From: Kiritimatiellia bacterium
Lineage (GTDB): Bacteria; Verrucomicrobiota; Kiritimatiellia; RFP12; UBA1067
Assembly (NCBI GenBank): GCA_041673345.1
Contig: JBAYXX010000004.1
Coordinates: forward strand, 4,607 to 68,606
DNA length: 64,000 bases
Reading direction: 5' to 3'
Shown here one piece after another: positions 26,684 to 48,985 of the stretch (positions are counted from its first letter, which is position 1; each line of letters opens with the position of its first letter). The notes under the pieces are model-generated. The model was given only the letters and a program-made list of their open reading frames with translations, had not been told where the DNA came from and searched no databases. Made by a program: the position numbers and the translations under genes.

Positions 26684-27484
26684 TTATAGCTCTTTTGAAA
26701 TAAGTATCGCTAAGGCTGTGTTTTGCAAAACCTGGGAGTCGTTGATGCCGTTCCAAAAGCCACCTCCAAGCGGATCAATCTTTTGGGTACTGATAATTTT
26801 TCGGGCAAAAATCCTGCGCCAGTCAACTCTTTGGCCTTGGGCTTTGACCAGTTGCCCCCGCCCCACTCGATTGATTACCCTTGCATCCAGCCACATCTGC
26901 AGCATACTGGTGTTCCCTGCGGTCAGTTGATGAGCGAGCGATTTGTAGTACTCTTGCGATGCCGCCAGCACTGTATCCTCAGGCTCCAGCAAGGCTAACC
27001 CAAGGAGCAGTTCGCGTTGCAAGATTACATCAACAGGCGACAGGGCCAGTTTTGGTTCTTTGAGCCAAGCGCAGTTCCGCTCTGCAGCGCAGCCGGTTGT
27101 GCCTGTAACTCTCAATGCCGCGGCACTCCAGACGACTGCGGAAAAATTAGTCAAGGGCTGAACGCTAGATCGCTCTTCAATATATTGTAAGGCAGCATGG
27201 AGTGTGTTGGTCAGCTTTAGGTTGTTTTGTGATGCGAATGCCAGCGCGCACAGCGCGGTGGTTTCAAGCTTGCTGAATCCGCCCCAACTGCCGTCTGTGT
27301 TCTGTTGAGTTTTAATCCAATTAACGCCCAAATCAACGGCGCGGTCGAGTTCCTGTTGGATGGAAATATCCAGTGAGTCGCCAGACTCACGGAATTTCCG
27401 CAGTGGCAGACCCTTTTCTGCAAAAGCAGAAAAACAGATGCCAATGCTTAACAATCCGTGGATTATAGTAGTTTTTAAATTCAT
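26684..27484 (-). CDS. Secreted prenyltransferase/squalene-cyclase-repeat (QW-motif) protein
   Basis: Signal peptide MNLKTTIIHGLLSIGICFSAFA. QW motif RAVDLGVNWIKTQQNTDGSWGG followed by ETTALCALAFAS. Confidence 0.7.
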   Translation of the reverse strand: MNLKTTIIHGLLSIGICFSAFAEKGLPLRKFRESGDSLDISIQQELDRAVDLGVNWIKTQQNTDGSWGGFSKLETTALCALAFASQNNLKLTNTLHAALQYIEERSSVQPLTNFSAVVWSAAALRVTGTTGCAAERNCAWLKEPKLALSPVDVILQRELLLGLALLEPEDTVLAASQEYYKSLAHQLTAGNTSMLQMWLDARVINRVGRGQLVKAQGQRVDWRRIFARKIISTQKIDPLGGGFWNGINDSQVLQNTALAILISKEL

Positions 27485-27810
27485 GCTGGTGCTTGTCTAT
27501 AACTTCAAATAGGTTAAGGGGTTTTCCCTATGTTTTTCTCTTTGCCTACAACTCGGGGTTGCTATCGGAATCGGTATCGAAAAGCAAAAAAGATCGACTT
27601 CATGACTTCACGACTTCCGATTTTTATGCTGCCATTTTCACGCATAGTACTGTTTCTGTTGAACCCTGAAATATAGCCGTTGATAAGATCCGAAAATTTA
27701 TGTATAAGTGTATTCATGCGCCGTGCTCCTTTGTGATGTTGATTTGAAAAATTATTATAAGAAGATTTCAACGCATTTTAAAGGATATATTGTTAAACAG
27801 GAGAATTTTG

Positions 27811-36672: not shown

Positions 36673-39600
36673 ATGAGTAATATTAGATTTCATAGATTTC
36701 TGTTGTTATCGATCATAACCACCTTTGGTTTTGCTTTCGCTACAAGCCTAGTAGCGCAAGAGTCCAAGGTTGATGCGGAGTTAAAAGAGGAACTCAAATA
36801 TATTGAGTTGCTTCAGCAAATGCGGATGCCGGACATTGCGGAACAGGTGATTGCCGATGTTAAGAAAGCGTATCCTGAGGCTGGACCGCAGCTTAAGGTA
36901 CGTGAATTTCAGGGTCTGCTGTGGCAGGGCAAGTTCGATGAGGTCAAGGTTCAGATTGACGCAATACCGGACAAGAACAGCTCTGAGTTCTGGGCGTTGA
37001 CACTGGCCATGGCGGATGCGTATTACGCTTTTCAGCGCTATGCCGAGGCGGACAAGCTCTATCAGGAGTTCTTTAAAAAAGTGGCTAAGCCCTCCGAAGC
37101 GATGCACTCCTTTTATCGAGACTCGGCCTATAAGTACGCGCAGATGTTGCTTTATTTGGGGAAGGACGCGGAGGCGCTTAAGGCTTACAAACTGCTGTCC
37201 AATGTAAAGCTGGAAGAGGACCGGGAGCGGAATGTCAATGCGGACATGGCTGAGCTGATGCTGAAACTGGCAGTTGATCTTAAAGACAAAGCCGCCAAGG
37301 CTGCGATGCTGAAAGAGGCCGAGGTGCTGGTGGATAAACTGCTCTGGAAGCAGGATGTCTGGTTCGGTAAAGCGATTGTCATGAAGGCCCATGTTGCGAT
37401 GTTGCGGGATGATATCAAAGGGGCGCAGGCGCTGGTGGAAAACTACATGCCGCAGCTGAAGATTATCCATGACTCGCTGCTGGAAGACGATCCGGACGGC
37501 ACACGGGGCTGGCTGCGGATGAGCCCGATGCCTGAGTGTCGGTATCTGTTGGCGGTTTTACTGCTGGATGAGGCCAAGGCGGAGATGAAGAAACCCGCTC
37601 CTGATGAGGAGCTGATCAAGGGTTATTTTTTGGGAGAGCGCGATCCCAAGACCAAGAAACGTGCGAACAACGGGGCTTTCAACCACTTCATCAATGTGTT
37701 TATCCGTTTTCCTGAGAGTCAGTGGGCTGCCGATGCTGGCGAGCACTCGGATGAGATTCGTAGTATTATTAAGGATCGTTACAATGTGGATGTGCGTACA
37801 CCAGTGACACCGCAGCAGATGGAGCGGGTACGGACCATGCAGTTTGCGGGGGCCAATTTGTTGTTCAGCCAGAATAAATTTAAAGAGGCGGCGGAGAAGT
37901 ACCTGATTGTAATAAACCAGTTCCCGGAGTCTATGGAGTCGGTCAACGCACTCGGCAATCTGGCGATCTGTTATATTGAGGGCGGTGCCGATGATGAGCT
38001 GATGGCTGATGCAGTGGTGGGGCATCTCTCTGAACGTTTTGCTGTCAAGAAGGATTTAATGAAGGCCGCTGGTGATCAGGTGCGCAAGATCGGGGATTAT
38101 TATGGCAACAATAATCGTGATGACAAAAAGCGCGAAGTTTACACAATGTTCTTCCGCGATTACCCAACGCATTATGCCGCGAGTCAGTTGGTCATGAGCT
38201 TTGCAGAGCGTGAGTTCAAAGCAGAGAACTATGTTGGCGCCAAAGCCTATTATGACAGGGTGATCACTGAGTACAAGTCTTCCACCTATTATCACGACGC
38301 GTTGAACCGGATCACGCAGATTTACAGGGCTGAAGGGAACTTCTCTAATGAGCTGAGTTCACTGGAGTTTTTGATTGACGAGCTGCAGAAGAGCGAGCGG
38401 CCTGGTCATAATCTGGTGGTCGCGAAGTTTCGCCTAGCCGATGTAGAGCGCTCTTATGGCTCGCTGCTGCTGAAGTCAGGTGCCACCAACGAGACCGATG
38501 AAGCGGTGCTGCAGGAGGGGGCTCGTTTGCTGACAAAAGCCGCGCTCAGCTTTGATGCGGTCGCTAAAATGCTGGCCGACCCAACTCCCTATCAGAAGAA
38601 CGCTGAAGAGACCGAGCGCAACCAGCAGATGCGGGAGATGGCCACTTTCACCAAGGGTGTTGCACTATCACAATTGCAGTACCCCAAGGACAAACGGACG
38701 ATCTACCGCAGGCTGTCGATTGCAGCGTTTGAGGCTTACCTGACCGCTTTTCCCAAGAGTAAGTATTCACCCAAAGCTCAGTTGCAGCTCGGTACGTTGT
38801 ACACAGTTCTTGCCGGCAACGCCACCGAGGAGCGTGATCAGAACGAATACAAGGAAAAAATCCAGAAAGCTTTTGAAGCGCTCAGCAAAAATTACCCTGA
38901 CTCCGAGGAGGCCAAAAACTCTGTTCCGATGCTGGCAGCGAGTTTGATTGAAATGGGGTTGCGCGGTGAGGGCGTGGCTAAATACCGTGAGATGTTCACT
39001 GGGGGCGGCAAATACACGCCAGGGCAGTACAACGCGGCTGGCAATGCCCTGCTGCAGTCACAGGAGTACGCGCTGGCTTTAGAGGCTTACAACAAGGTGC
39101 TGGCGAACTCGAAGGAGTTTGCGCTGATTGCCGAGGCCAAGTTAGGTAAAGCCAAAGCGTTGGTCGGCCAAAAGCAGTACCGTGAGGCGCGCAAGCTGTT
39201 GGCGGCCTATGTGGTCGATCCCGAACTTTCAAAGTTAGTGCAGGTGGTGGATGCCCATATGCTGTTAGCTGACGCGGCCAGTGAGGAGGGCAAGACCGAG
39301 GCAGACAATGAGCTGCGTAAAGACCTCTTCAACCAAGCGGTCGATTCACTTAAACTGGTGCGGGGTTACCGCAAGACCAAAGCCGAGATTGCCGAGATCG
39401 ATTTGGCCACTGGCAATATGCTGGTGCGCAAGATGGAGGCAGAGAAGAAGCTTGGTCTGAATGATCAGGCGGCTGAGACACGCGGCACTGCGATTGTGGC
39501 TTTTATGATAATTATCGACCGGTTTGATCCAGGCGACGCCATTTTGTCACCCTATCTGGAGAAGGCCTACTTTGCCTTCACCCCGCTGCTGTTGGAGCAT

Positions 39601-39714
39601 AAAGCCTATGCCCAGGCCGTGGATGATTGTGAAACATATCTCAGGCTGTTCCCGCAGGGGCGCTACGCGACTGATATGCAAAACTGGCTCAATCAGGCGA
39701 AGATCGGGCAGTAA
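36673..39714 (+). CDS. Large secreted tetratricopeptide-repeat (TPR) protein
   Basis: 1013 aa. Signal peptide MSNIRFHRFLLLSIITTFGFAFATSLVAQ. Recurrent TPR-like A..Y..G.Y..A...Y/F segments throughout (e.g. AMADAYYAFQRYAEADKLYQEFF, AEREFKAENYVGAKAYYDRVITEY). Confidence 0.85.
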   Translation: MSNIRFHRFLLLSIITTFGFAFATSLVAQESKVDAELKEELKYIELLQQMRMPDIAEQVIADVKKAYPEAGPQLKVREFQGLLWQGKFDEVKVQIDAIPDKNSSEFWALTLAMADAYYAFQRYAEADKLYQEFFKKVAKPSEAMHSFYRDSAYKYAQMLLYLGKDAEALKAYKLLSNVKLEEDRERNVNADMAELMLKLAVDLKDKAAKAAMLKEAEVLVDKLLWKQDVWFGKAIVMKAHVAMLRDDIKGAQALVENYMPQLKIIHDSLLEDDPDGTRGWLRMSPMPECRYLLAVLLLDEAKAEMKKPAPDEELIKGYFLGERDPKTKKRANNGAFNHFINVFIRFPESQWAADAGEHSDEIRSIIKDRYNVDVRTPVTPQQMERVRTMQFAGANLLFSQNKFKEAAEKYLIVINQFPESMESVNALGNLAICYIEGGADDELMADAVVGHLSERFAVKKDLMKAAGDQVRKIGDYYGNNNRDDKKREVYTMFFRDYPTHYAASQLVMSFAEREFKAENYVGAKAYYDRVITEYKSSTYYHDALNRITQIYRAEGNFSNELSSLEFLIDELQKSERPGHNLVVAKFRLADVERSYGSLLLKSGATNETDEAVLQEGARLLTKAALSFDAVAKMLADPTPYQKNAEETERNQQMREMATFTKGVALSQLQYPKDKRTIYRRLSIAAFEAYLTAFPKSKYSPKAQLQLGTLYTVLAGNATEERDQNEYKEKIQKAFEALSKNYPDSEEAKNSVPMLAASLIEMGLRGEGVAKYREMFTGGGKYTPGQYNAAGNALLQSQEYALALEAYNKVLANSKEFALIAEAKLGKAKALVGQKQYREARKLLAAYVVDPELSKLVQVVDAHMLLADAASEEGKTEADNELRKDLFNQAVDSLKLVRGYRKTKAEIAEIDLATGNMLVRKMEAEKKLGLNDQAAETRGTAIVAFMIIIDRFDPGDAILSPYLEKAYFAFTPLLLEHKAYAQAVDDCETYLRLFPQGRYATDMQNWLNQAKIGQ

Positions 39715-39753
39715 GTAAGTGAATGGCAAAGAGATTTGAGGAATAAAAAAGGA

Positions 39754-40563
39754 ATGAGTATGAGAAAAAGTATTAGAACAGTTCTTTTGACAGCACTGCT
39801 GCTGGTGGCAGGTGCTGGGATGGCTGCTGTGCAGGGCACAATTGTCACGACTGATGGTAAAAAACTTGACGGCGAGATTGTCTGGAAAATCCGTGAGAAA
39901 GCCTATGGCATTAGTGCGTCAGGCGCGGGTAATATTGAGCTGGCGCTGGAACGGGATAAGGTTGCGCGGCTAGTCATCCCCAAGCCGGCGGAGTTGACTG
40001 CAGTGGAGGCGAATTTGAAAAAAGGCGAGGGTGCCGCTGCCGCTATTCCTGTGTTGAATAAAATCATCAATGATTACTTCATGCTCAACTGGGACAGGCC
40101 TGCAACACGCCTGCTGGCCGAGGCTTATGTCAAAAACAATGATGTCGCTAATGCGATTAAGGTTTGCGAACGGGTGATTGCGACTGATCCGACGGCGGCC
40201 TATCAGGGTGATATGGCGCCAGCCTACTGGGCGGCACTGTTGATGGGTGACCGAATTGCCAAACTGGATGATCTGATTACGCAAGCGGTGAAAAACGCGG
40301 ATCGTTCCGCCTCCGCCTTCGCGTTGATTATGCGTGGCGATATGATCATGAAAGCCGGCGACACCAATGAGAGTGCCAGTAAAGCTTTGCGTGATGGTTA
40401 TCTGCGCGTGGTTACGCTTTACAGCGGAATCAAAGCCGCGCAACCGGAAGCGTTATATAAGGCGGCCAAGTGCTTTGAAAAACTGGGCCATTCATCTCGC
40501 GCTGATCAGATGCGCACAAAGTTGAAAGGGGAGTACGGCTCTTCTGAGTGGGCTCTTAAATAA
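39754..40563 (+). CDS. Secreted TPR protein (CpoB/YbgF-like size and position)
   Basis: Signal peptide MSMRKSIRTVLLTALLLVAGAGMAAVQG. TPR-like helices (LLAEAYVKNNDVANAIKVCERVIATDP; ALYKAAKCFEKLGHSSRADQM). Directly upstream of exbB/tolQ. Confidence 0.75.
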   Translation: MSMRKSIRTVLLTALLLVAGAGMAAVQGTIVTTDGKKLDGEIVWKIREKAYGISASGAGNIELALERDKVARLVIPKPAELTAVEANLKKGEGAAAAIPVLNKIINDYFMLNWDRPATRLLAEAYVKNNDVANAIKVCERVIATDPTAAYQGDMAPAYWAALLMGDRIAKLDDLITQAVKNADRSASAFALIMRGDMIMKAGDTNESASKALRDGYLRVVTLYSGIKAAQPEALYKAAKCFEKLGHSSRADQMRTKLKGEYGSSEWALK

Positions 40564-40659
40564 ACAGCAGGCGTGCCCCGGGCGGGGTATGCACAACAGT
40601 TTTGTTAGTCAATAAGCTAACTTTTAAAAACACGAGTAATAAAAACACAAGAGGTAATA

Positions 40660-41448
40660 ATGAAAAGACTGATTTTGTCAGCAGTAGTGTTCACAGGGTT
40701 AATACTTGGGAGCGCGCCGGTCATGGCGCAAGATGCGGATGCAGCGGCCGCGCCAGCCGCAGAGGGCGTATTGGTCGCTGAGGGAGGCGCCGCAGGGGTC
40801 AGACAGGCACCTCAAGCCGGTTTCTGGGCTGTGATTGTGGGCTCAGGTTGGCTGGGGATGGTTTTGTGGGCCGCGCTACTTGGCTGCGGCGGCACGGCAG
40901 TGTACTTTATCGTCGACTGCTCAGTCTTGATCCGACCGCAGAAAGTCATGCCTGAGACGCTGATCAACCGCGTGAAAGAGGGGATGTCCGAGGGCGATGT
41001 GATGAAAGCATTGCAAGCCTGTGAGTCAGAACCGGGACCGCTGGCCAATATTCTGACCGCTGGTTTTTCGCATGTGGAAGAGGGCTTCGATATTATCCAG
41101 GAGTCGATCATCGCCGCCGCTGATTTGGAGACCGAGCGCTTGATGCAGCGTCTGACCTGGATCTCAGTCTGCGCCAACCTCTCGCCCATGTTGGGTCTGC
41201 TGGGTACAGTGCAAGGCATGATCATGAGTTTCGCCACTCTGGCCACTGGCGCCCCTGATGTCGGTGCCTTGGCGATGAACATCTCGCAGGCACTCTGGAC
41301 AACTGCGGCCGGTTTGGCGATTGCGATTCCCTCGATCACCTTTTATTACAGCATCCGTAACAATGCCAACCGTCTGATCCTGCGTATGCAGGCTATGACC
41401 ATGGAGCTGATTAAAGACCTGCGTAACGTCGAGGTTGTCAGCGATTAA
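40660..41448 (+). CDS. exbB: MotA/TolQ/ExbB proton-channel family protein
   Basis: 262 aa with an N-terminal signal-like segment, three TM helices and the family motif PMLGLLGTVQGMIMSF. An ExbB versus TolQ assignment cannot be made from sequence alone. Confidence 0.9.
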   Translation: MKRLILSAVVFTGLILGSAPVMAQDADAAAAPAAEGVLVAEGGAAGVRQAPQAGFWAVIVGSGWLGMVLWAALLGCGGTAVYFIVDCSVLIRPQKVMPETLINRVKEGMSEGDVMKALQACESEPGPLANILTAGFSHVEEGFDIIQESIIAAADLETERLMQRLTWISVCANLSPMLGLLGTVQGMIMSFATLATGAPDVGALAMNISQALWTTAAGLAIAIPSITFYYSIRNNANRLILRMQAMTMELIKDLRNVEVVSD

Positions 41449-41607: not shown

Positions 41608-42045
41608 ATGCACAAAAGAAGACAGAGCTCAACTGAGACGTGCGATATAGATATGACGCCTATGATTGACGTTGTGTTCCAGTTGATTATTTTCTTTGTA
41701 GTCACTCTTAAAATGACATCTGACAAGAATGAGGATATCGTTCTGGAGGATGGCAAGCATGGCGTGACGTTGACCCAGGATAATATGCCGCCAACCACGC
41801 TCGAAATTGAGCTGGGACGGAGAGGACGCATCTCGATTCATAACGCGACACTGTCGAGATATCAACTGCAACAGATCTTACGAGCCCGCGTAAACCGCAA
41901 CGGAAATGAGTTTCCCGTGTTAATTCGCGCTGACCGCAAAACCCAGCACGAAAAGGTGCGCGAGATTATGGACATCTGCACGGGTGTGGGAATCTGGAAG
42001 CTGTCGTTCGTGGCTGTTCAAGAGCATAAAGCGAAAAGAAAATGA
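41608..42045 (+). CDS. exbD: ExbD/TolR-family biopolymer transport protein (1 of 2)
   Basis: DIDMTPMIDVVFQLIIFFVVT is the canonical ExbD/TolR N-terminal TM motif. 145 aa. Confidence 0.9.
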   Translation: MHKRRQSSTETCDIDMTPMIDVVFQLIIFFVVTLKMTSDKNEDIVLEDGKHGVTLTQDNMPPTTLEIELGRRGRISIHNATLSRYQLQQILRARVNRNGNEFPVLIRADRKTQHEKVREIMDICTGVGIWKLSFVAVQEHKAKRK

Positions 42046-42064
42046 TAAATGCTAGGAGGCTGAC

Positions 42065-42469
42065 ATGGCTTATGTGAGAAAACGGAATAAAGGAGAGACT
42101 CCCAAGCTGGACATGACACCGATGATTGATGTTGTGTTTCAATTGTTGATTTTCTTTATTGTCACAATTAAACAGGAGGACATCCTCTCAAAACTATCCG
42201 CGGCGCGTCCGGCTGCGGATAAAAATGCGCGACCTGACAAGAAGCCCGACTTGATCACAATCGTGGTCGCGCCTCAGGGATTTGTTTTTAATGGGCGGAT
42301 TGTCTCTCTGGATGAGCTTGATCGCAGGGTCAAACGTTACTCTGACCTGAGTAAGACGGCGATGATTGTTATTAAATGCACCGCCGACTCACCGCATGCT
42401 TTTCTTGTGCAGTCGCTGGACATCTGCAACAAGCATGGCATGACCAACCTGTCGATCTTCAGCATCTGA
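42065..42469 (+). CDS. exbD: ExbD/TolR-family biopolymer transport protein (2 of 2)
   Basis: LDMTPMIDVVFQLLIFFIVT. 134 aa. Confidence 0.9.
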   Translation: MAYVRKRNKGETPKLDMTPMIDVVFQLLIFFIVTIKQEDILSKLSAARPAADKNARPDKKPDLITIVVAPQGFVFNGRIVSLDELDRRVKRYSDLSKTAMIVIKCTADSPHAFLVQSLDICNKHGMTNLSIFSI

Positions 42470-42489
42470 CAAGAGAAGGGCGGAACACT

Positions 42490-44073
42490 ATGGTTTTCAA
42501 TGAGGTAGATACGAATCTCGCGGAGATTGCCGAGATGTATGGTAATGAATCTTACCTCAAGCGGATGAGAAAGCTTTTCACTGGCTTGAAAGCGCCGCGC
42601 GATTCCAGAGCTTACAAAGTGGCGATGATTGAAATACAACGCCTCTCCGCCCCAATCTCGGCTATTCTGATGCCGCTGCTCTCAGTTATGCTGCTGATTG
42701 TGTTGTCAAATGCTTCGGTCACCGATGACCGGATTATTGAGACGCAGATCATGGAAGCTGAGGAAATGCAGGAGCTGACGGAGATTGAAGTCATGGAAAA
42801 ACCCCCTGAAGATATGCAGCAGATCGATATCGACATGCCCGTCGATACCCCGGATGTGAGCGTCGAGAATGTGCAGGACACCCCTATGAGTCCTCAGCCA
42901 CAGGCGTTTGACACGGTCATGACTGTGAAAAGCCCGGTGATTCTCAAAAACATCTACGGTTCGACGCGTAACACCGGCACCCGCGGCGCCTCACTGGCCC
43001 GTTTCGGCGGCGACAAGGATACTGAGGATGCGGTGATGCGGGCACTGCGCTGGCTCAAGAAAAACCAGAATCAAGATGGAAGCTGGAGTAGACACAAGGT
43101 TGCTATGACCGGCCTTGGGGTGCTGACCTTCCTGGCGCACGGTGAGAAACCCGGAGATTCACCGGAGTTTGGTGAAACTGTACGCAAGGCACTGGAGTAT
43201 CTTTTGAAGGTGCAGCGTGCTGACGGCTTGCTGCCAGGCGGAGGTAGCAACTATGATCACCCCATTGCCACCTACGCGCTGTGCGAGGCATACGGCATGA
43301 CCCTGAACCCGAATGTCAAGGAGTCCGCTGAAAAGGCGCTGGATCAGATCATCAAAGGACAGCACCCAACTGGCGGCTGGACCTATAAACTGTTTCCCGG
43401 CATCGAGGAAAAGACCGGAAAATACCGTGATGACACCTCTTATATGGGATGGTGCGCTCAGGCGCTTAAGGCTGGCAAGCTGGCGAAGCTCAATGTTGAA
43501 GGGCTGGATAAGTCAATCCAGACTGCAGTCAAGGGATTCAAGGCCAATGCGGCTCCGAACGGCGGCTTCGGCTACTGTGCGCCTGGCAGCGGTGGCTTGA
43601 CAGCTGTGGGCGTGCTGTGTATGCAGCTGCTGGGGGCCGGTAACGACACCTCGGTGCGTAAATCACAGGAACTAATGGATGGGTGGAGTATCGGAGAGTT
43701 TGACAAAGACAACAAAGTTGGCAAAAGCTCGCAGTATTATTTTTACTATGCGACCCAGGCTAAGTTTCATGCAGGTGGTAAGCGCTGGACCAATTGGAAT
43801 AACGAGATGAAACCGATTTATATCAAAGCCCAGAAGGTTATGAAAAATGCGATCAAGGATATGAACGGCAAAGATTGTGACATTGGGTGGTGGGAGAATA
43901 TTGACGCGCACACTGATCGCCCTGTGATGGACACCTGTCTGGCAGCACTTCAACTGATGGTTTACTACCGGAACCTGCCCACCACCAGCCGCGAAGCGGT
44001 TCAAGTTGAAGTGGAGATCGAGGCCTCCTCAACTGACACCGGAGATATCGAGGTCGATGTCGGGAATCTGTAA
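42490..44073 (+). CDS. Inner-membrane-anchored protein with TonB/TolA-like topology and a periplasmic QW-motif (squalene-cyclase/prenyltransferase-like) domain, paralog 1
   Basis: I chose the ATG at 42490 (MVFNEVDTNLAEIAEMYGNESY...), which matches the start of paralog 2. The track start at 42376 lies inside exbD. It has a TM helix LSAPISAILMPLLSVMLLIVL, an acidic/Pro linker EAEEMQELTEIEVMEKPPEDMQQIDIDMPVDTPDVSVENVQDTPMSPQPQ, and QW motifs RALRWLKKNQNQDGSW and KALDQIIKGQHPTGGW. Confidence 0.75.
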   Translation: MVFNEVDTNLAEIAEMYGNESYLKRMRKLFTGLKAPRDSRAYKVAMIEIQRLSAPISAILMPLLSVMLLIVLSNASVTDDRIIETQIMEAEEMQELTEIEVMEKPPEDMQQIDIDMPVDTPDVSVENVQDTPMSPQPQAFDTVMTVKSPVILKNIYGSTRNTGTRGASLARFGGDKDTEDAVMRALRWLKKNQNQDGSWSRHKVAMTGLGVLTFLAHGEKPGDSPEFGETVRKALEYLLKVQRADGLLPGGGSNYDHPIATYALCEAYGMTLNPNVKESAEKALDQIIKGQHPTGGWTYKLFPGIEEKTGKYRDDTSYMGWCAQALKAGKLAKLNVEGLDKSIQTAVKGFKANAAPNGGFGYCAPGSGGLTAVGVLCMQLLGAGNDTSVRKSQELMDGWSIGEFDKDNKVGKSSQYYFYYATQAKFHAGGKRWTNWNNEMKPIYIKAQKVMKNAIKDMNGKDCDIGWWENIDAHTDRPVMDTCLAALQLMVYYRNLPTTSREAVQVEVEIEASSTDTGDIEVDVGNL

Positions 44074-44077
44074 TTAT

Positions 44078-45304
44078 ATGCTCTTTTCTCTTTTTTTGGC
44101 GCTTAAATATTTGAAACCCAAACGCACCGTCACATCAGTGGTTTCTCTGATCTCGGTGCTTGGTGTTGTGCTGGGTGTGGCGATTATCATTATTGTGCGC
44201 GCTGTGATGACCGGCTTTGGTGACATGTGGCAGGAGAAGATTCTGGATTTCAAGCCCCATATCATCATTCGTTCGTTTGCGGGCGGGGTCATTCAGGACG
44301 AGGAGGCCCTCTGCCGCAGATTGGAGCTGGTGGAGGGGGTCAAGGCCGCCTCCCCGTCACTGGAAACCAGAGTGCTGGTGGAAAATCATCGGCGGGTGGT
44401 GGCCCCGGTGCTGATCGGTGTGGATCCGGTGCGTGCAAAGAGTATTATGAAACTGGAGCACATGCAAGCAGGTGAGTTTGATGTGACCGGTGATGCAGTG
44501 GTGCTGGGCACTGACCTGGCGCAGGAACTCGGGGTGGGGGTCGGTGACGATCTGCTAATCTACTCGCCCATGAATCTGGTTTCCACGGATGAGGTCTACT
44601 TTCCAGACCGCTTGAACGTCAAAGGGATCTTTGAGTCAGGGCAGCGCGACTTTGATTCCGGGTACATAATCACCTCACTGGCAGTGGCGCGTGATCTGAT
44701 GGGTATGAGTTCAGGGGTTTATTCCATTCATCTCAAGACTGAGCAACCCGCCAATTTTGAGTTCTTCAATAAGATTGTGGGACGGGTGGAAGATATCACA
44801 CCCAATTTTCGGGTTCAGACCTGGCAGGAGATTGACCGGCAGATCTTTAATGCGCTGGCGGTTGAAAAAAACATGATGGTGATTCTGCTGATGTTTATCA
44901 CGGTGGTTGCGATTTTCTGTGTCACCAACACCTTGATTGTGTTGACAGTGCAGAAAACCGATGAGATCGGCCTGCTCAAAGCACTGGGTTTTTCCTCGCG
45001 TCAGGTGATGGGCGCTTTTGTGATTTACGGCTGGATCCAGTGCCTGATCGGAACTCTGCTGGGAATTGTCGCCGCTTTTTTGATATTGTACAATTTGCAG
45101 TCCATGGTGGATGGCCTGGCCCTGCTGGGAGTGGAGGTTTTTCCCAAGGCGATCTACGGGCTGAATGCGATCCCCTGGCGGATTATTCCCTCCGAGGTGG
45201 TGAATGTGGCGCTGTCGGTGATCCTGTTCTGCACGGTCGCCAGTTTTCTGCCCGCCTGGAGAGCCGCACGGATGGATCCGGTGGTTGCGCTGCGTAAAGA
45301 GTAG
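44078..45304 (+). CDS. LolC/LolE-family ABC transporter permease (MacB-type periplasmic domain + FtsX)
   Basis: MLFSLFLALKYLKPKRTVTSVVSLISVLGVVLGVA is a typical LolC/E N-terminus. C-terminal FtsX helices, ending ...PAWRAARMDPVVALRKE. The ATG at 44078 is 4 nt after the upstream stop. Confidence 0.85.
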   Translation: MLFSLFLALKYLKPKRTVTSVVSLISVLGVVLGVAIIIIVRAVMTGFGDMWQEKILDFKPHIIIRSFAGGVIQDEEALCRRLELVEGVKAASPSLETRVLVENHRRVVAPVLIGVDPVRAKSIMKLEHMQAGEFDVTGDAVVLGTDLAQELGVGVGDDLLIYSPMNLVSTDEVYFPDRLNVKGIFESGQRDFDSGYIITSLAVARDLMGMSSGVYSIHLKTEQPANFEFFNKIVGRVEDITPNFRVQTWQEIDRQIFNALAVEKNMMVILLMFITVVAIFCVTNTLIVLTVQKTDEIGLLKALGFSSRQVMGAFVIYGWIQCLIGTLLGIVAAFLILYNLQSMVDGLALLGVEVFPKAIYGLNAIPWRIIPSEVVNVALSVILFCTVASFLPAWRAARMDPVVALRKE

Positions 45305-45362
45305 AGTTGCGGATGACGGCAGGCGGGTGATCGCAGGCCGTTGCCGTAGAAAGAAACGATCA

Positions 45363-46037
45363 ATGCTGGAAGCGAAAAATTTATTTAAAACCTATACTCT
45401 GCCCCATAAGCAGGTGAGTGTGCTGCAGGGCGCCGGGATAGCCGTGCGGGAAGGGGAGCGCGTCGCGGTTGTCGGACGCAGCGGCGCGGGTAAAAGCACT
45501 CTGCTGCATGTGCTGGGCGGCTTGGATCGCCCTGATTCCGGCGATGTGATGATTGATGGGGTCTCGCTGTATGGGATTTCACGGCGTAAAAGAACGGCGG
45601 TGCGAGCCGCTCGGATTGGTTTTGTTTTTCAGTCATACCATCTTCTGCCGGAGATGGATGTGACCGAGAATGTGATGCTGCCAGCCATGACTGGGGTTCT
45701 CAGAATCAAGCGCCACGAGATGCGTACGCGCGCGTTGGTGCTGCTGGCGCGGGTGGGACTGAGTGATCGGGCCAGCCATATGCCCATGGAACTCTCAGGC
45801 GGAGAGCAGCAGCGTGTCGCACTGGCGCGGGCGCTGATTAATAACCCGGCGCTGGTACTGGCCGATGAGCCGACCGGCAACCTGGATAGTAAAACCGGCT
45901 CGCAGGTGATGGATTTGCTTTTTGAGCTCTCCAGCGCCAACAAGTCTGCATTGATCATGGTCACCCACTCAATGCGGAGCGCGGCGCTGTGCGACCGAAT
46001 ACTTGAGATTCAAGACGGTTTGCTGGTGGGGGCGTGA
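45363..46037 (+). CDS. lolD: ABC transporter ATP-binding protein, LolD-like
   Basis: [11 protein letters not shown], Walker [10 protein letters not shown], signature [15 protein letters not shown], Walker [14 protein letters not shown] chose the ATG at 45363; the track's upstream extension is Arg-rich and non-homologous. Confidence 0.85.
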
Positions 46038-46085
46038 AGGCCTTAAAAATGATACAGTAAAAAGAACAAGGGGTTATCCCCTCGG

Positions 46086-46139
46086 CTGGATATTTGCAAC
46101 AAGCATGACATGACCAACCTGTCGATCTTCAGCATCTGA
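46086..46139 (+). pseudogene. Relic of the last 17 codons plus stop of exbD, carried along by a segmental duplication
   Basis: ctggatatttgcaacaagcatgacatgaccaacctgtcgatcttcagcatctga, against 42416-42469 ctggacatctgcaacaagcatggcatgaccaacctgtcgatcttcagcatctga (LDICNKHGMTNLSIFSI*). No upstream exbD body is present here. Confidence 0.85.
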
Positions 46140-46159
46140 CAAAAGAAGGGAGGAACACT

Positions 46160-47893
46160 ATGAGATTCAATGAGGTAGATACCAATCTCGCGGAGATTGC
46201 CGAGATGTATGGCAATGAGTCCTATATCAAGCGGATGAAAAAGCTTTTCACAGGCTTGAATGCGCCGCGTGATTCCAGAGCTTATAAAGTGGCGATGATT
46301 GAGATACAGCGCCTTTCCGCCCCGATTTCGGCTATTCTGATGCCGCTGCTCTCAGTTATGCTGCTGATTGTGTTGTCAAATGCTTCGGTCACCGATGACC
46401 GGATTATTGAGACGCAGATCATCGAAGCTGAGGAGATGCAGGAGCTGACGGAGATTGAAGTCATGGAAAAACCACCTGAAGACATGGCGCAGATTGATAT
46501 CGACATGCCTGTCGATACCCCGGATGTGAGCGTCGAGAATGTGCAGGACACCCCCATGAGCCCTCAGCCACAGGCGTTTGATACGGTCATGACCGTGAAA
46601 AGCCCTGTGATTCTCAAAAACATCTATGGCTCGACGCGCAACACCGGCACCCGTGGAGCCTCGCTGGCCCGCTTCGGCGGCGACAAGGAGACCGAGGATG
46701 CGGTAATGCGGGCGCTGCGCTGGCTCAAAAAAAATCAGAATGACGATGGGAGCTGGAATAAAAATAAGGTCGCCATGACCGGTCTGGGGGTGCTGACCTT
46801 CCTAGCTCACGGTGAGAAACCAGGGGACTCGCCGGAGTTTGGTGAAACCATACGCAAGGCGCTGGAGTTTCTGCTGAATTCACAGCAAGCTAATGGCTTG
46901 CTGCCCGGCAACTACGATCACCCCATAGCCACCTACGCACTGTGCGAGGCCTATGGTATGACCATGAATCCGAATGTCAAAGAGGCCTCTGAAAAGGCAC
47001 TGTACCATATCATCAAAGGACAGCACCCAACTGGCGGCTGGACCTACAACCTGTTTCCAGGTCCCAGTGCCGAGACCGGAAAATACAGGGATGACACATC
47101 CTATATGGGGTGGTGTGCGCAGGCCTTGAAAGCCGGCCAACTGGCGAAGCTCAATGTGGATGGGCTTGAAAAGGCGATGAAGCTGGCTATTAAGGGTTTT
47201 CAGGCCAATGCGGCTCCCAACGGTGGTTTCGGATACTGCGGACCTGGACGTGGAGGACTCACGGCAGTTGGGACATTATGTATGCAGCTTTTAGGTGCTG
47301 CTAACAAATCGGAGGTCAAGGAATCACTCAAGTTGATGAATGAATGGGTGCCGACGTTCTCACAATATGAACCGGTCCAAGCATGTATAAAACAATTGAA
47401 GCCAGAAGATCTAATCAAGCGTGACACATCAGGAAAACCGGTTCTGGATGAAAAAGGAAAACCAGAAAAACTGGCTCCCATGGCTGTGGCAAAAAGTAAG
47501 CTTATTTCAACAGCTGATCCGGCTGAAAAAATGTTTTATACGGCATCGGCGCAATACTATTTTTATTACGCGACGCAGTGCAAGTTCCATGAGGGTGGCA
47601 GGCAGTGGAATAACTGGAACAAAGAGATGAAACCAAGGTATACCAAGGCGCAGAAAGTACAGAAAAACGGGATTAAAGACCATAAAGGAAAAGACCAGGA
47701 TATTGGCTGGTGGGAGAATGCTGACCATGCCTCTGATCGTCCGGTGATGGACACTTGCCTGGCAGCGCTGCAGCTGATGGTGTACTATCGGAATCTACCC
47801 ACTACCAGCCGCGAAGCAGTTCAGGTTGAAGTCGAGATCCAGGCCACCTCAACCGACACCGGAGATATCGAGGTCGATGTCGGGAATCTGTAG
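46160..47893 (+). CDS. Inner-membrane-anchored QW-motif protein, paralog 2 (with a ~70-aa replacement insertion)
   Basis: 577 aa, MRFNEVDTNLAEIAEMYGNESY.... Same TM helix, linker and QW motifs as paralog 1. The first ~185 aa differ at about 7 positions and the last ~52 aa at 2 positions. The middle is more diverged. Confidence 0.8.
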   Translation: MRFNEVDTNLAEIAEMYGNESYIKRMKKLFTGLNAPRDSRAYKVAMIEIQRLSAPISAILMPLLSVMLLIVLSNASVTDDRIIETQIIEAEEMQELTEIEVMEKPPEDMAQIDIDMPVDTPDVSVENVQDTPMSPQPQAFDTVMTVKSPVILKNIYGSTRNTGTRGASLARFGGDKETEDAVMRALRWLKKNQNDDGSWNKNKVAMTGLGVLTFLAHGEKPGDSPEFGETIRKALEFLLNSQQANGLLPGNYDHPIATYALCEAYGMTMNPNVKEASEKALYHIIKGQHPTGGWTYNLFPGPSAETGKYRDDTSYMGWCAQALKAGQLAKLNVDGLEKAMKLAIKGFQANAAPNGGFGYCGPGRGGLTAVGTLCMQLLGAANKSEVKESLKLMNEWVPTFSQYEPVQACIKQLKPEDLIKRDTSGKPVLDEKGKPEKLAPMAVAKSKLISTADPAEKMFYTASAQYYFYYATQCKFHEGGRQWNNWNKEMKPRYTKAQKVQKNGIKDHKGKDQDIGWWENADHASDRPVMDTCLAALQLMVYYRNLPTTSREAVQVEVEIQATSTDTGDIEVDVGNL

Positions 47894-47968
47894 CGCGCAG
47901 ACTTGTGCTTTTGGGCAAAATCCTGTATGATATCCAGCCTTTTACAAAAAGATAGGCAAGGTTAAGCG

Positions 47969-48985
47969 ATGAAACAGTATAAAGTTGGTTTAGTGGGGAT
48001 TGGTGCCGTTGGCACTGAAATGATTAAGGTTTTGCGTCAGCGTAATTTTCCGGTGAGCGAGATACGGGTGCTGGCCACCCGTGAGCGCGATGAGGAGATT
48101 GCCGGCGAGATTTTTCATGTTCAGGTGGCAAGTCCCGAGGCCTTTGATGGCTTGGATATTGTTTTGTTCGCAGGCACTGAGGGTGCCAAGGGTGCCTCCA
48201 TGCAGTATGCAAGGGAGGCCGTTAAACGCGGATGCGTGGTGATTGACAACGGTGATGACTTCCGTATGGATGATAGTGTGCCGCTGGTGATCCCGGAGAT
48301 CAACGGAGATGCGCTGGAAAAACACCAAGGGTTGATCGCCAATCCGAACTGCAGCACAATCATCACTTTGATGGGCATCGCTCCTTTGCATCAGGTAGTT
48401 CCAATGAAACATATGACAGCTGTGACATTCCAATCAGTCAGCGGCACCGGGCGCGATGCAGTCGATGAACTGGAGCAGCAGGTGCAGGATTACGCCGCTG
48501 GTCGCAGCTCTGAGCCGCAGGTCTATCGCTACCCAATTGCATTCAATGTTCTGCCGCAGATTGGCGGGCCTAAGCCCGAGATGCCAGGCTTCACCAGCGA
48601 AGAGGCCAAACTGACCTTTGAGTCGCGCAAAATTCTGGGTGTGCCGGATCTCAGGATTGCCAGCACCTGTGTGCGGGTTCCTGTTTTCTATGCGCATTCA
48701 GTGGCGGTGCATGCCGAATTCAAGGCGCCGATGACTCCCGCCAGGGCGCGTGAAATTTTGAGCGCCGCCGCAGGCGTTAAGGTCGTGGATGATCTGGCCG
48801 CTGGTCAGTATCCAATGCCGATCACTATTGGTGGCGGCGATGATGTTGGTGTGGGACGTATCCGCGTGGACCCAAGTGTGGAGAACGGATTGGCATTGTG
48901 GTGTTGCGGCGACAACATCCGCAAGGGTGCCGCTCAAAACGCAGTCCAGATTGCGGAAGAGCTGATCAGACGCGGTTTGATCTAA
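47969..48985 (+). CDS. asd: Aspartate-semialdehyde dehydrogenase
   Basis: 338 aa. VGLVGIGAVGTEM (NAD(P) binding), active-site IANPNCSTI, SVSGTG. Confidence 0.93.
   Translation: MKQYKVGLVGIGAVGTEMIKVLRQRNFPVSEIRVLATRERDEEIAGEIFHVQVASPEAFDGLDIVLFAGTEGAKGASMQYAREAVKRGCVVIDNGDDFRMDDSVPLVIPEINGDALEKHQGLIANPNCSTIITLMGIAPLHQVVPMKHMTAVTFQSVSGTGRDAVDELEQQVQDYAAGRSSEPQVYRYPIAFNVLPQIGGPKPEMPGFTSEEAKLTFESRKILGVPDLRIASTCVRVPVFYAHSVAVHAEFKAPMTPARAREILSAAAGVKVVDDLAAGQYPMPITIGGGDDVGVGRIRVDPSVENGLALWCCGDNIRKGAAQNAVQIAEELIRRGLI

What the first reader, a model, noticed from the sequence alone, without database searches (positions are those of the whole stretch)
42416..47893. Segmental duplication of the QW-anchor gene that dragged along a 54-nt exbD tail, with mosaic (end-conserved, centre-diverged) identity
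46086-46139 reproduces the last 17 codons and stop of exbD2 (42416-42469) with 4 substitutions. The same spacer and RBS follow (acaagagaagggcggaacactATG versus acaaaagaagggaggaacactATG). So the unit [exbD 3' end + QW gene] was copied to a position downstream of lolD. Similarity ends at the stop codons (44071 and 47891). At the protein level the first ~185 aa differ at only about 7 positions and the last ~52 aa at 2. The toroid core is clearly more diverged. In copy 2, roughly 47342-47552 replaces GWSIGEFDKDNKVGKSS with a ~70-aa Lys/Pro/Glu-rich segment (EWVPTFSQYEPVQACIKQLKPEDLIKRDTSGKPVLDEKGKPEKLAPMAVAKSKLISTADPAEKMFYTASA). This pattern suggests either gene conversion homogenising the anchor/linker and C-terminal tail, or strong constraint on the parts that contact ExbBD while the ligand-facing toroid diversifies.
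Basis: seen in the sequence. Interest (0 to 1): 0.65.

Follow-up and report, generated by a model that had tools for sequence, protein, structure and literature searches.

The report
Recombinant second QW gene, exbD relic
A Kiritimatiellia genome has a second gene for a membrane-anchored, ExbBD-linked toroid protein that recombination patched together from three sources, next to the stump of a deleted exbD gene; this is a clear but mechanistically ordinary case of gene conversion and gene decay.

Summary
46085-47238 and 47550-47892 repeat 42415-43577 and 43730-44072 at 87% and 80% identity. The protein ends are near-identical, the centre is diverged, and copy 2 is 50 aa longer.

The "duplication that dragged an exbD tail" reading does not hold. 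Two related genomes (L002, L097) carry an intact 132-133-aa exbD3 plus a second QW gene at the same place, between lolD and asd. That module is therefore old.

In the window, exbD3 is a dead relic at 46053-46139. Its 5' ~35 nt are fused in frame to the last 54 nt at a GCTGGAYAT motif that occurs as a direct repeat in exbD2.

The mosaic is real at silent sites (max chi-square 46.8, permutation maximum 21.1), so recombination produced it, not selection alone.
- From the relic junction to about 47057-47210, and from about 47744 to the stop, copy 2 is copy-1-type. It includes a 95-nt identical run.
- The centre belongs to a "long-loop" allele class found in single-copy orthologues of other Kiritimatiellia.
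- The centre has aberrant GC3 (0.33-0.44 versus 0.63), which suggests import.
- The "70-aa insert" is a conserved loop that is confidently modelled as folded.

The mechanisms are known kinds. Interest is moderate.

The parts
36673..41448 (+). Head of the conserved operon: large TPR protein (36673-39714), small TPR protein (39736-40563), ExbB/TolQ-like protein (40660-41448)
   Evidence: Pfam and NCBIfam hits. The same gene order occurs in dozens of Kiritimatiellia loci.
41608..42469 (+). ExbD1 (41608-42045) and ExbD2 (42065-42469). ExbD2 contains the 9-nt direct repeat GCTGGACAT at 42106 and 42415.
   Evidence: PF02472 hits. Repeat positions. The second repeat copy is exactly where similarity with the copy-2 locus begins.
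42490..44073 (+). QW copy 1, 527 aa: N-terminal transmembrane helix, disordered acidic/Pro linker, alpha/alpha toroid with the short loop, conserved C-terminal tail
   Evidence: It is orthologous to L002_c1 at 87% aa with uniform silent divergence.
44078..46037 (+). LolC/E-like permease (44078-45304) and LolD-like ATPase (45363-46037), lying between the two QW genes
46053..46085 (+). 5' piece of the exbD3 relic. In frame it reads YSKKNKGLSPR(LD), an ExbD N-terminus. It has no Shine-Dalgarno sequence, and the only nearby ATG (46049) is out of frame (ATGATACAGTAA).
   Evidence: 24/30 ungapped and 28/39 identical to nt 10-48 of L002 exbD3, versus <=62% to any exbD2. The local score of 30 only equals the maximum of 100 shuffles against the whole L002 locus (mean 21.8). 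The frame is continuous with the tail.
46085..46139 (+). Deletion junction (GCTGGATAT, 46085-46093) followed by the 3' 54-nt exbD tail, which reads LDICNKHDMTNLSIFSI*
   Evidence: 52/55 identical to W exbD2, 48/53 to L002 exbD2, and 39/47 to L002 exbD3. It has the structure expected from a deletion between the two GCTGGACAT repeats.
46140..46159 (+). Spacer with RBS (AGAAGGGAGGAAC), copied together with the tail
   Evidence: 2 substitutions in 20 nt versus 42470-42489.
46160..47893 (+). QW copy 2, 577 aa, intact and under purifying selection (overall dN/dS about 0.13)
46160..47057 (+). Copy-1-type 5' tract, continuous with the tail and RBS. It covers the anchor, the linker and the first part of the toroid, and includes a 95-nt run identical to copy 1 (46328-46422).
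   Evidence: pS 0.03-0.5, at or below the W/L002 orthologue level. Bootstrap for (W_c1,W_c2) is 100% for aa 1-185. For aa 186-345, copy 2 lies outside (W_c1,L002_c1), which has 85% support. Identical run.
47057..47743 (+). Diverged centre with a long-loop-class core. The low-GC3 core is about 47210-47560, and the loop itself (aa 397-463) is 47348-47548.
   Evidence: Breakpoints. Over aa 361-525, best matches are long-class orthologues at 71-73% aa (L016/L017, P0042) versus 41% to copy 1. Bootstraps place that segment with L010 or with L016/P0042 and never with copy 1. The aa 300-360 flank has no clear closest relative. GC3 of aa 361-525 is 0.442 against 0.627 +/- 0.047 for neighbouring genes. 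Loop pLDDT is 79-92.
47744..47893 (+). Copy-1-type 3' tract, covering the end of the toroid and the conserved disordered tail
   Evidence: 2 differences in 52 aa. pS 0.41. The clade (W_c1,W_c2,L002_c1) has 82% bootstrap.
47894..48985 (+). Right junction with the asd promoter-like spacer and asd (47969-48985). The sequence directly after the stop codon is shared with L002.
   Evidence: W reads TAG-CGCGCAGACTTG... and L002 reads TAG-AGTGCAGCCTTG..., followed by the conserved spacer. In the single-copy relatives L005 and L007, asd follows lolD directly.

Best explanation
**Context.** The window comes from a Kiritimatiellia genome. It carries the class-wide operon TPR-TPR-ExbB-ExbD1-ExbD2-QW-LolC-LolD. 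QW is an inner-membrane-anchored protein with a disordered linker and an alpha/alpha-toroid head.

**An old second module.** A second module, exbD3 + QW2, with its own upstream spacer, lay between lolD and asd in the common ancestor of this genome, L002 and L097.

**Three changes in this lineage**
1. The spacer upstream of exbD3 was lost. exbD3 collapsed to a dead relic of about 90 nt. Its first ~12 codons are fused in frame to its last 17 codons at the motif GCTGGAYAT (Leu-Asp). That motif occurs twice as a direct repeat in exbD2 of this genome, which points to slippage or a microhomology-mediated deletion of about 300 nt.
2. Copy-1-type sequence overwrote the locus from that junction rightwards through the RBS and about 900-1050 nt of QW2, and again over the last ~150 nt. 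This is ectopic gene conversion from the exbD2-QW1 locus, or from a very close relative's copy of it. It dates to roughly the split from L002, and at least one later exchange left a 95-nt identical run.
3. The central ~350-690 nt carry a different allele class with a folded ~67-aa loop. Their GC3 is abnormally low, so they were most likely imported by homologous recombination from a lower-GC, L010-like relative.

**Result (inferred).** QW2 is an intact chimera, probably co-transcribed with lolD. It has the QW1 anchor and linker, so it presumably docks on the ExbB-ExbD1-ExbD2 motor and no longer needs its own ExbD3. It also has the QW1 tail and a foreign toroid face.
For: **Layout in relatives**
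- L002 and L097 have lolD, a spacer, an intact exbD3 (132/133 aa) and QW2.
- L002_c2 and L097_c2 form their own lineage (bootstrap 97% and 87%), and W_c2 never joins it.
- A seven-protein NJ tree puts L097 basal to (L005,(L099,(W,L002))) with 100% support, so the module is old and L005 lost it.
- W and L002 share the sequence directly after the stop codon of the second gene.

**Relic**
- The 5' piece matches L002 exbD3 at 24/30 and 28/39 and reads as an ExbD N-terminus in frame with the tail.
- The junction lies at the GCTGGAYAT repeat.

**Recombination**
- Silent-site max chi-square is 46.8 against a null maximum of 21.1, and the orthologue and paralogue controls are flat.
- Two-breakpoint maximum likelihood gives 2*dlnL = 105.
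- The segment trees conflict.
- pS of the copy-1-type tract (0.10-0.47) is about that of the W/L002 orthologues (0.22-0.56).
- There is a 95-nt identical run.

**Centre**
- It is homologous to the long-class loop of single-copy syntenic orthologues.
- GC3 is 0.33-0.44 against 0.63. This drop of 0.19 compares with 0.04-0.07 for the same segment in other genomes.
- pS is lowest against L010.
Against: - No donor closer than 71-73% aa was found for the centre in the searched collections, so its import is inferred from composition and phylogeny only.
- Segment B (aa 186-345) is not sister to W_c1. The clade (W_c1,L002_c1) has 85% support, and copy 2 lacks their GGS triplet. Part of the copy-1-type tract may therefore come from a close relative rather than from the resident copy 1.
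- The nucleotide match of the 5' relic is short. Its score of 30 only equals the maximum of 100 shuffles against the whole L002 locus. Its weight rests on position, orientation and reading frame.
- The order of deletion and conversion, and whether they were one event, cannot be resolved.
- The link between anchor type and ExbD3 is inference. In other lineages, extra QW copies without their own ExbD have N-termini only 43-92% identical to copy 1.
Confidence: 0.72

Rival explanations
1. One-piece xenologous replacement. The whole stretch from the exbD tail to the stop codon came from the exbD2-QW1 locus of an unsampled sister lineage whose QW has a long-loop centre, as L010 has among its short-loop relatives. 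It replaced most of the resident exbD3-QW2. Only a later small patch (aa 57-115) was converted by the resident copy 1.
For: - For aa 186-345, copy 2 lies outside (W_c1,L002_c1), which has 85% bootstrap, and it lacks their shared GGS.
- pS to W_c1 and to L002_c1 is about equal, a trichotomy.
- L010 shows that short-clade-type flanks with a long-class centre exist in nature.
Against: - GC3 of the flanks equals the host value (0.63-0.67) while the centre is 0.33-0.44. The centre would be compositionally foreign in such a donor too.
- aa 1-185 and the last 52 aa group with W_c1 (bootstrap 100% and 57%).
- No such lineage was found.
Confidence: 0.17
2. A recent segmental duplication of [last 54 nt of exbD2 + QW1] landed in an empty lolD-asd spacer. 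The toroid centre then diverged faster and gained a 70-aa insertion.
For: Similarity begins abruptly inside exbD2 and ends at the stop codon. The ends are nearly identical.
Against: - An intact exbD3 + QW2 sits at the same site in L002 and L097.
- An exbD 5' remnant lies upstream of the tail.
- The "insert" is 59-73% identical to the loop of orthologues in other genomes.
- Silent sites in the centre are saturated, while the flanks are at the orthologue level.
Confidence: 0.04
3. Selection only. A uniformly old paralogue pair in which purifying selection keeps the ExbBD-contacting ends alike while the toroid diversifies, without recombination.
For: dN/dS is low everywhere (0.03-0.15). The ends are the most conserved parts of the family.
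Against: - Synonymous divergence differs about 3-30-fold between blocks and the breakpoints are significant. The orthologue controls are flat.
- The non-coding spacer and the dead exbD tail are also conserved.
- The segment phylogenies conflict.
Confidence: 0.03
4. Assembly artefact. The metagenome assembler joined reads of two strains or of the two paralogues into a chimeric copy 2.
For: The source is a metagenome-assembled contig. The paralogues share repeats.
Against: - The longest identical run is 95 nt, shorter than the k = 141 implied by the ENA contig's name (k141_234229).
- Copy 2 is encoded identically on a 31-kb ENA contig, and the database records a 76-kb contig carrying the same protein.
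- The reading frame is intact.
- The relic is consistent with L002 and L097.
- No population that could have supplied the centre was seen.
Confidence: 0.04

Closest known systems
Concerted evolution of bacterial paralogues by ectopic gene conversion (for example tufA/tufB in Salmonella and E. coli; from general knowledge, not tested here)
   Same: Two paralogues in one genome are kept alike over defined tracts by recombination. Silent sites are homogenised and tract ends are sharp.
   Different: Here only the ends are homogenised. The tract runs past the start codon into a neighbouring gene remnant. The centre resists conversion because it belongs to a different allele class with a 50-aa length difference.
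Mosaic genes built by inter-species homologous recombination (for example penA or pbp2x in Neisseria and Streptococcus; general knowledge)
   Same: A central block of foreign ancestry with deviant composition lies between native flanks in an intact gene.
   Different: The recipient is a paralogue of an uncharacterised ExbBD-linked protein. The donor is unsampled and the selective agent is unknown.
Putative vWA-headed periplasmic force transducers encoded after TPR-tolQ-tolR-tolR in PVC bacteria, including the Kiritimatiellota species Tichowtungia (PMC12204202, section 8)
   Same: [quoted passage not shown] Same three-part build: a transmembrane helix, a disordered linker and a globular head.
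   Different: The head is an alpha/alpha toroid rather than vWA. The transmembrane helix has no His/SHLS motif. That paper does not mention this family.
Class II terpene cyclases and prenyltransferase beta subunits (the database names for these proteins)
   Same: Alpha/alpha-toroid fold with QW-like repeats.
   Different: Scores are far below the family cut-offs (38 bits versus 323-431). The proteins have a periplasmic membrane-anchored build and sit in an ExbBD operon. An enzymatic role is unsupported.

Membership tests
ExbD/TolR (PF02472), applied to the 46053-46139 element | Complete protein of about 130 aa with an N-terminal transmembrane helix carrying the conserved Asp (..MIDVVF..) and a periplasmic domain | tested here: not met
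   Only the codons before the helix and the last 17 codons remain. There is no in-frame start or Shine-Dalgarno sequence. It is a gene remnant, not a gene.
Ectopic gene conversion between paralogues | Heterogeneous synonymous divergence with significant breakpoints, absent from orthologue controls | tested here: met
   Max chi-square 46.8 versus a null maximum of 21.1, with flat controls. Two-breakpoint 2*dlnL = 105.
Ectopic gene conversion between paralogues | The converted segments group with the resident paralogue rather than with orthologues of the recipient | tested here: met
   For aa 1-185, (W_c1,W_c2) has 100% bootstrap. For the last 52 aa, it has 57%, within an 82% clade with L002_c1. 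W_c2 never groups with L002_c2 or L097_c2.
Ectopic gene conversion between paralogues | The donor is the copy in the same genome for the whole tract | tested here: inconclusive
   For aa 186-345, copy 2 falls outside (W_c1,L002_c1), which has 85% support, and it lacks their GGS. The donor there may be a close relative, or the event may be as old as the W/L002 split.
Horizontally imported recombinant block (mosaic gene) | Phylogenetic placement with another lineage plus deviant composition | tested here: met
   The centre groups with long-class orthologues (L010 41%, L016/P0042 32%, copy 1 0%). GC3 of aa 361-525 is 0.442 against 0.627 +/- 0.047.
Horizontally imported recombinant block (mosaic gene) | An identifiable donor lineage with near-identical sequence | tested here: not met
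   The best matches are 71-73% aa.
TonB/TolA-type force transducer (for the QW proteins) | Encoded with ExbB/TolQ and ExbD/TolR; N-terminal transmembrane helix, extended disordered linker and globular C-terminal head | tested here: met
   Operon. In the model, the helix is aa 40-74, the linker aa 75-173 has pLDDT < 50, and the head aa 174-544 has pLDDT about 90.
TonB/TolA-type force transducer (for the QW proteins) | SHLS/His motif in the transmembrane helix and a TonB_C or TolA domain III head | tested here: not met
   The conserved helix motif is QRLSAPxxAxxxP, with no His. The head is an alpha/alpha toroid.
Squalene-hopene / class II terpene cyclase | Full-length match above the curated cut-off | tested here: not met
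   TIGR01787 scores 38 bits against a cut-off of 322.7. TIGR01507 scores 35 bits against 431. Only single QW-repeat stretches match in Pfam.

The most novel reading that the evidence does not exclude
QW proteins may be exchangeable heads of a TolQR/ExbBD-type motor that stands in for TonB/TolA in Kiritimatiellia. Their anchor-linker, toroid-loop and tail modules would be shuffled between paralogues and between species. On this reading, the window captures a module swap. QW2 received the QW1 anchor, which made its dedicated ExbD3 dispensable, and it received a foreign ligand-facing loop cassette. That would imply diversifying selection on what the motor pulls on or binds, such as a substrate, an outer-membrane partner or a phage.
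Probability: 0.25. Interest if true: 0.7.

Novelty: new member of a known kind. Interest (0 to 1): 0.42.

Why it matters
The mechanisms are textbook ones: gene conversion, deletion between short direct repeats, and inter-lineage recombination.

The case is still useful because it concerns an uncharacterised protein family that is conserved across Kiritimatiellia. The family occupies the TonB/TolA position of an ExbB-ExbD-ExbD operon, in a phylum whose member Tichowtungia aerotolerans was reported to lack discernible TolA/TonB homologues (PMC12204202).

The recombination boundaries divide the protein into natural modules:
- the anchor and linker, together with the upstream RBS;
- the toroid core with a variable loop;
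- the conserved disordered tail.

The loss of exbD3 in the same genome in which QW2 acquired the QW1 anchor gives a testable hint about which part of QW talks to which ExbD.

The case also shows that the "insert" and the "dragged tail" are misreadings that only comparative loci can correct.

Tried and rejected
- **Rfam scan of the window.** It found nothing.
- **Protein search with the 166-aa centre.** It returned only fragment-sized proteins at <=60% identity, so it did not help to find a donor.
- **Metagenome scan seeded from the centre.** It found no relative closer than 72%.
- **Is copy 2 the orthologue of L002's second copy?** Rejected. Identity is 37% in the N-terminal part and 67% in the core, and the two never group together.
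- **Is the low GC3 of the centre only a Lys-rich composition effect?** Rejected. The same segment in L010, L012 and L016 drops by only 0.04-0.07, against 0.19 here.
- **Do QW copies without their own ExbD always keep a copy-1-like anchor?** Not supported as a rule. Identities range from 43% to 92% in other tandem arrays.
- **Promoter and terminator scan of 45800-48100.** It gave nothing on the + strand above shuffle expectation.
- **Foldseek against the PDB.** It gave only generic alpha/alpha-toroid matches and no specific function.
- **Literature searches.** They found no description of this ExbBD-QW family. Only the analogous vWA family appears.

Full report
**1. What is in the sequence**

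The + strand of 36.6-49 kb encodes, in order:
- a 1013-aa TPR protein and a 275-aa TPR protein;
- an ExbB/TolQ-like protein;
- two unlike ExbD proteins;
- a 527-aa "QW" protein (42490-44073);
- a LolC/E-like permease (44078-45304) and a LolD-like ATPase (45363-46037);
- a second, 577-aa QW protein (46160-47893);
- asd.

blastn confirms the repeat. 42415-43577 matches 46085-47238 at 87.2%, and 43730-44072 matches 47550-47892 at 80.1%. The 20-nt spacer with the RBS recurs with 2 substitutions. The proteins differ at 7 of the first 185 residues and at 2 of the last 52.

**2. The mosaic is real and lies at silent sites**

- Nei-Gojobori windows were used. pS here is the fraction of synonymous sites that differ. 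It is 0.03-0.5 for aa 1-320, 0.8-1.0 (saturated) for about aa 340-510, and 0.4-0.5 for the last ~60 codons.
- A max chi-square test on codons that encode the same amino acid gives 46.8, against a permutation maximum of 21.1.
- The same test is flat for the orthologue pairs W_c1/L002_c1 and W_c1/L005 and for the L002 paralogue pair.
- A two-breakpoint likelihood scan places the diverged block at 47057 (47042-47063) to 47743 (47731-47776). Mismatch is 32% inside and 10.5% outside.
- Purifying selection alone cannot produce this pattern. It also cannot conserve a dead exbD tail and a non-coding spacer.

**3. Related loci change the interpretation**

The proteins carry NCBI names from Kiritimatiellia metagenome-assembled genomes. 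Copy 2 is encoded identically on a 31-kb ENA contig.

The operon TPR-TPR-ExbB-ExbD-ExbD-QW(-LolC-LolD) is conserved in dozens of Kiritimatiellia contigs.
- The closest genome, L002 (GCA_028686345.1), is 86-88% identical in nucleotides across the locus. It has the same two-copy layout, but with a 756-nt spacer and an intact 132-aa exbD3 directly upstream of its second QW gene.
- A more distant contig, L097, has the same arrangement.
- L005 and L007-L009 have lolD followed directly by asd.
- A seven-protein NJ tree gives (L097,(L005,(L099,(W,L002)))) with 98-100% support. The exbD3+QW2 module therefore predates the L097 split and was lost in L005.
- L002_c2 and L097_c2 form their own divergent lineage (bootstrap 97% and 87%). 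They are only about 37% identical to first copies in the anchor and linker. The window's copy 2 never groups with them.
- W and L002 share the sequence immediately after the stop codon of the second gene. The site is therefore the same.

**4. The exbD fragment is a deletion relic**

- Upstream of the 54-nt tail, 46053-46082 matches nt 10-39 of L002 exbD3 at 24/30. The match extends to 28/39. The same stretch is at most 62% identical to any exbD2. The nucleotide score alone is marginal: 30, equal to the best of 100 shuffles against the whole L002 locus.
- Read in the frame of the tail, the element spells YSKKNKGLSPRLD|ICNKHDMTNLSIFSI*. This is an ExbD N-terminus joined to an ExbD C-terminus at a Leu-Asp motif.
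- exbD2 of this genome has the 9-nt direct repeat GCTGGACAT at exactly those two places, 42106 and 42415. Deleting between them would give ...TPKLD|ICNKHG....
- The left edge of the copy 1/copy 2 similarity (42415/46085) coincides with the second repeat.
- The relic has no Shine-Dalgarno sequence, and the nearby ATG is out of frame (ATGATACAGTAA). L002 and L097 share a conserved 71-nt element just upstream of exbD3, and it is absent here.
The tail is what remains of a full gene.
- The tail is 94% identical to exbD2 but only 83% to L002 exbD3. It therefore lies inside the copy-1-type tract. The 5' piece lies outside that tract.

**5. Ancestry of copy 2 by segment**

- **aa 1-185:** sister to the window's own copy 1 (100% bootstrap).
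- **aa 186-345:** within the W/L002/L099 group but outside (W_c1,L002_c1), which has 85% support. Copy 2 also lacks their GGS triplet.
- **aa 361-525:** among long-class proteins, with L010 at 41% or L016/P0042 at 32%, and never with copy 1.
- **Last 52 aa:** with W_c1 and L002_c1 (82%).
- **Silent divergence.** pS of the copy-1-type parts to W_c1 (0.10-0.47) is about that between the W and L002 orthologues (0.22-0.56). It dips to 0.03-0.10 around aa 57-115, where a 95-nt run is identical. There was therefore a conversion about as old as the W/L002 split, plus at least one later exchange.

**6. The "insert"**

- The 70-aa Lys/Pro/Glu segment aligns residue for residue with a conserved loop: WxPxFSxYxPV..IKQLKPEDLIKRDKSGKP.LD..GK...VAK.KL....EKMFY.
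- This loop is present in single-copy, syntenic orthologues in other Kiritimatiellia, namely L010/P0037, L011, L012, L016 and P0042. Identity is 59-73% aa.
- The short loop of copy 1 is the other allele class. L010 shows that both classes occur within the window's wider clade.
- In an AlphaFold model of copy 2 (48-sequence alignment, pTM 0.65), the loop is modelled confidently as a folded excursion of the toroid (pLDDT 79-92). The linker (aa 75-173) and the conserved C-terminal tail (aa 545-577) are disordered.
- GC3 falls to 0.33-0.42 over aa 361-463, with the core at nt 47210-47560. It is 0.44 over aa 361-525. The rest of the gene is at 0.63-0.67, and neighbouring genes average 0.627 +/- 0.047 (minimum 0.533).
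- The same segment in L010, L012 and L016 drops by only 0.04-0.07.
- Together with the lowest pS being to the low-GC genome L010, this points to import from a lower-GC, long-loop relative.
- No donor closer than 71-73% was found.

**7. Mechanism**

Shown:
- an old exbD3+QW2 module at this site;
- a dead exbD relic fused at a direct-repeat motif;
- recombinant ancestry of copy 2 with significant breakpoints;
- an intact copy 2 under purifying selection (dN/dS about 0.07-0.13).

Inferred:
- the deletion arose by slippage or microhomology;
- the flanks arose by ectopic gene conversion from the exbD2-QW1 locus;
- the centre arose by homologous recombination with foreign DNA;
- copy 2 is now transcribed by read-through from lolD;
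- after receiving the QW1 anchor, copy 2 uses the ExbB-ExbD1-ExbD2 motor, which made exbD3 dispensable.

The last point is weakly supported. Other tandem QW arrays are also mosaic. In L075, copies 1 and 3 are 80% identical in the N-terminal part and 100% in the toroid. In L091, one pair is 92%/77% and another is 61%/90%. However, copies without their own ExbD can have N-termini only 43% identical to copy 1.

**8. Rivals**

- **One-piece import from an unsampled sister lineage.** It explains segment B and the missing GGS, but not the compositional break inside the gene (about 0.17).
- **A fresh duplication into an empty site, selection only, and assembly chimera.** Each is contradicted. For the chimera, the longest identical run is 95 nt, against the k = 141 implied by the ENA contig's name. 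The same protein is also encoded on a 31-kb contig and recorded on a 76-kb one.

**9. Comparison with what is known**

- The processes are classical: concerted evolution of paralogues, mosaic genes, and deletions between short repeats.
- The gene family is not characterised. Databases call it terpene cyclase or prenyltransferase, but scores are ten-fold below the cut-offs. Fold search gives only generic alpha/alpha toroids.
- Its build and neighbourhood match the putative vWA-headed force transducers described next to TPR-tolQ-tolR-tolR genes in PVC bacteria, including a Kiritimatiellota species (PMC12204202). Here the head is a toroid and there is no His/SHLS motif. It therefore works like, but is not a member of, TonB/TolA.

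**10. Verdict**

Gene conversion is supported. The dragged-along tail, the novel insertion and simple divergence are not. This is a well-resolved but mechanistically ordinary case, with added value as a natural dissection of modules in an unstudied ExbBD-linked family.

Noticed in passing
window 44071-44080: QW copy 1 and lolC are only 4 nt apart (TAA-TTAT-ATG). Relatives have 110-280 nt here, so this genome has also lost that spacer.
   Followed up: partly
L002 9600-9790: The QW1-lolC spacer of L002 holds four or five tandem copies of a ~37-nt unit (AAGTATATCCGCCGCTATGCGGTGGATGATTGCAA).
   Followed up: no
L002 12466-12534 and L097 11118-11188: A 71-nt stretch, 73% identical between the two genomes, lies just upstream of exbD3. 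It may be the module's own promoter. It is absent from the window.
   Followed up: partly
L075 8310-13696; L091 6928-11857; L080 12262-13302: Other Kiritimatiellia carry tandem arrays of two or three QW genes that are mosaic in the opposite or the same sense. In L075, copies 1 and 3 are 80% identical in the N-terminal part and 100% in the toroid. In L091, pairs are 92%/77% and 61%/90%. L075 and L080 also have anchorless 346-aa toroid-only copies.
   Followed up: partly
window 47792-47890 (copy 2 aa 545-577) and 43972-44070 (the same tail in copy 1): The C-terminal ~33 residues (...EAVQVEVEI.A.STDTGDIEVDVGNL) are predicted disordered (pLDDT 32-46) yet are among the most conserved parts of the family. 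This may be a docking peptide, and the operon encodes two TPR proteins.
   Followed up: no
window 46067-46084: The relic contains a GGGG-N4-CCCC hairpin. The scan scored it as a minus-strand terminator-like site. The same inverted repeat lies within the coding 5' end of L002 exbD3.
   Followed up: no
window 27179-27595 (- strand): A weak tblastn match to copy 2 aa 108-238, which spans the linker and the first toroid helices (25.7% over 144 aa, E = 3e-5). It may be another toroid-repeat protein in the window.
   Followed up: no
loci L017, L045, L051, L084 and others: Several contigs with this Kiritimatiellia-type operon are labelled Lentisphaeraceae, Akkermansia or Verrucomicrobia in their records. 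Many genomes also hold further QW paralogues on other contigs, with no operon genes detected beside them in the fetched flank.
   Followed up: no
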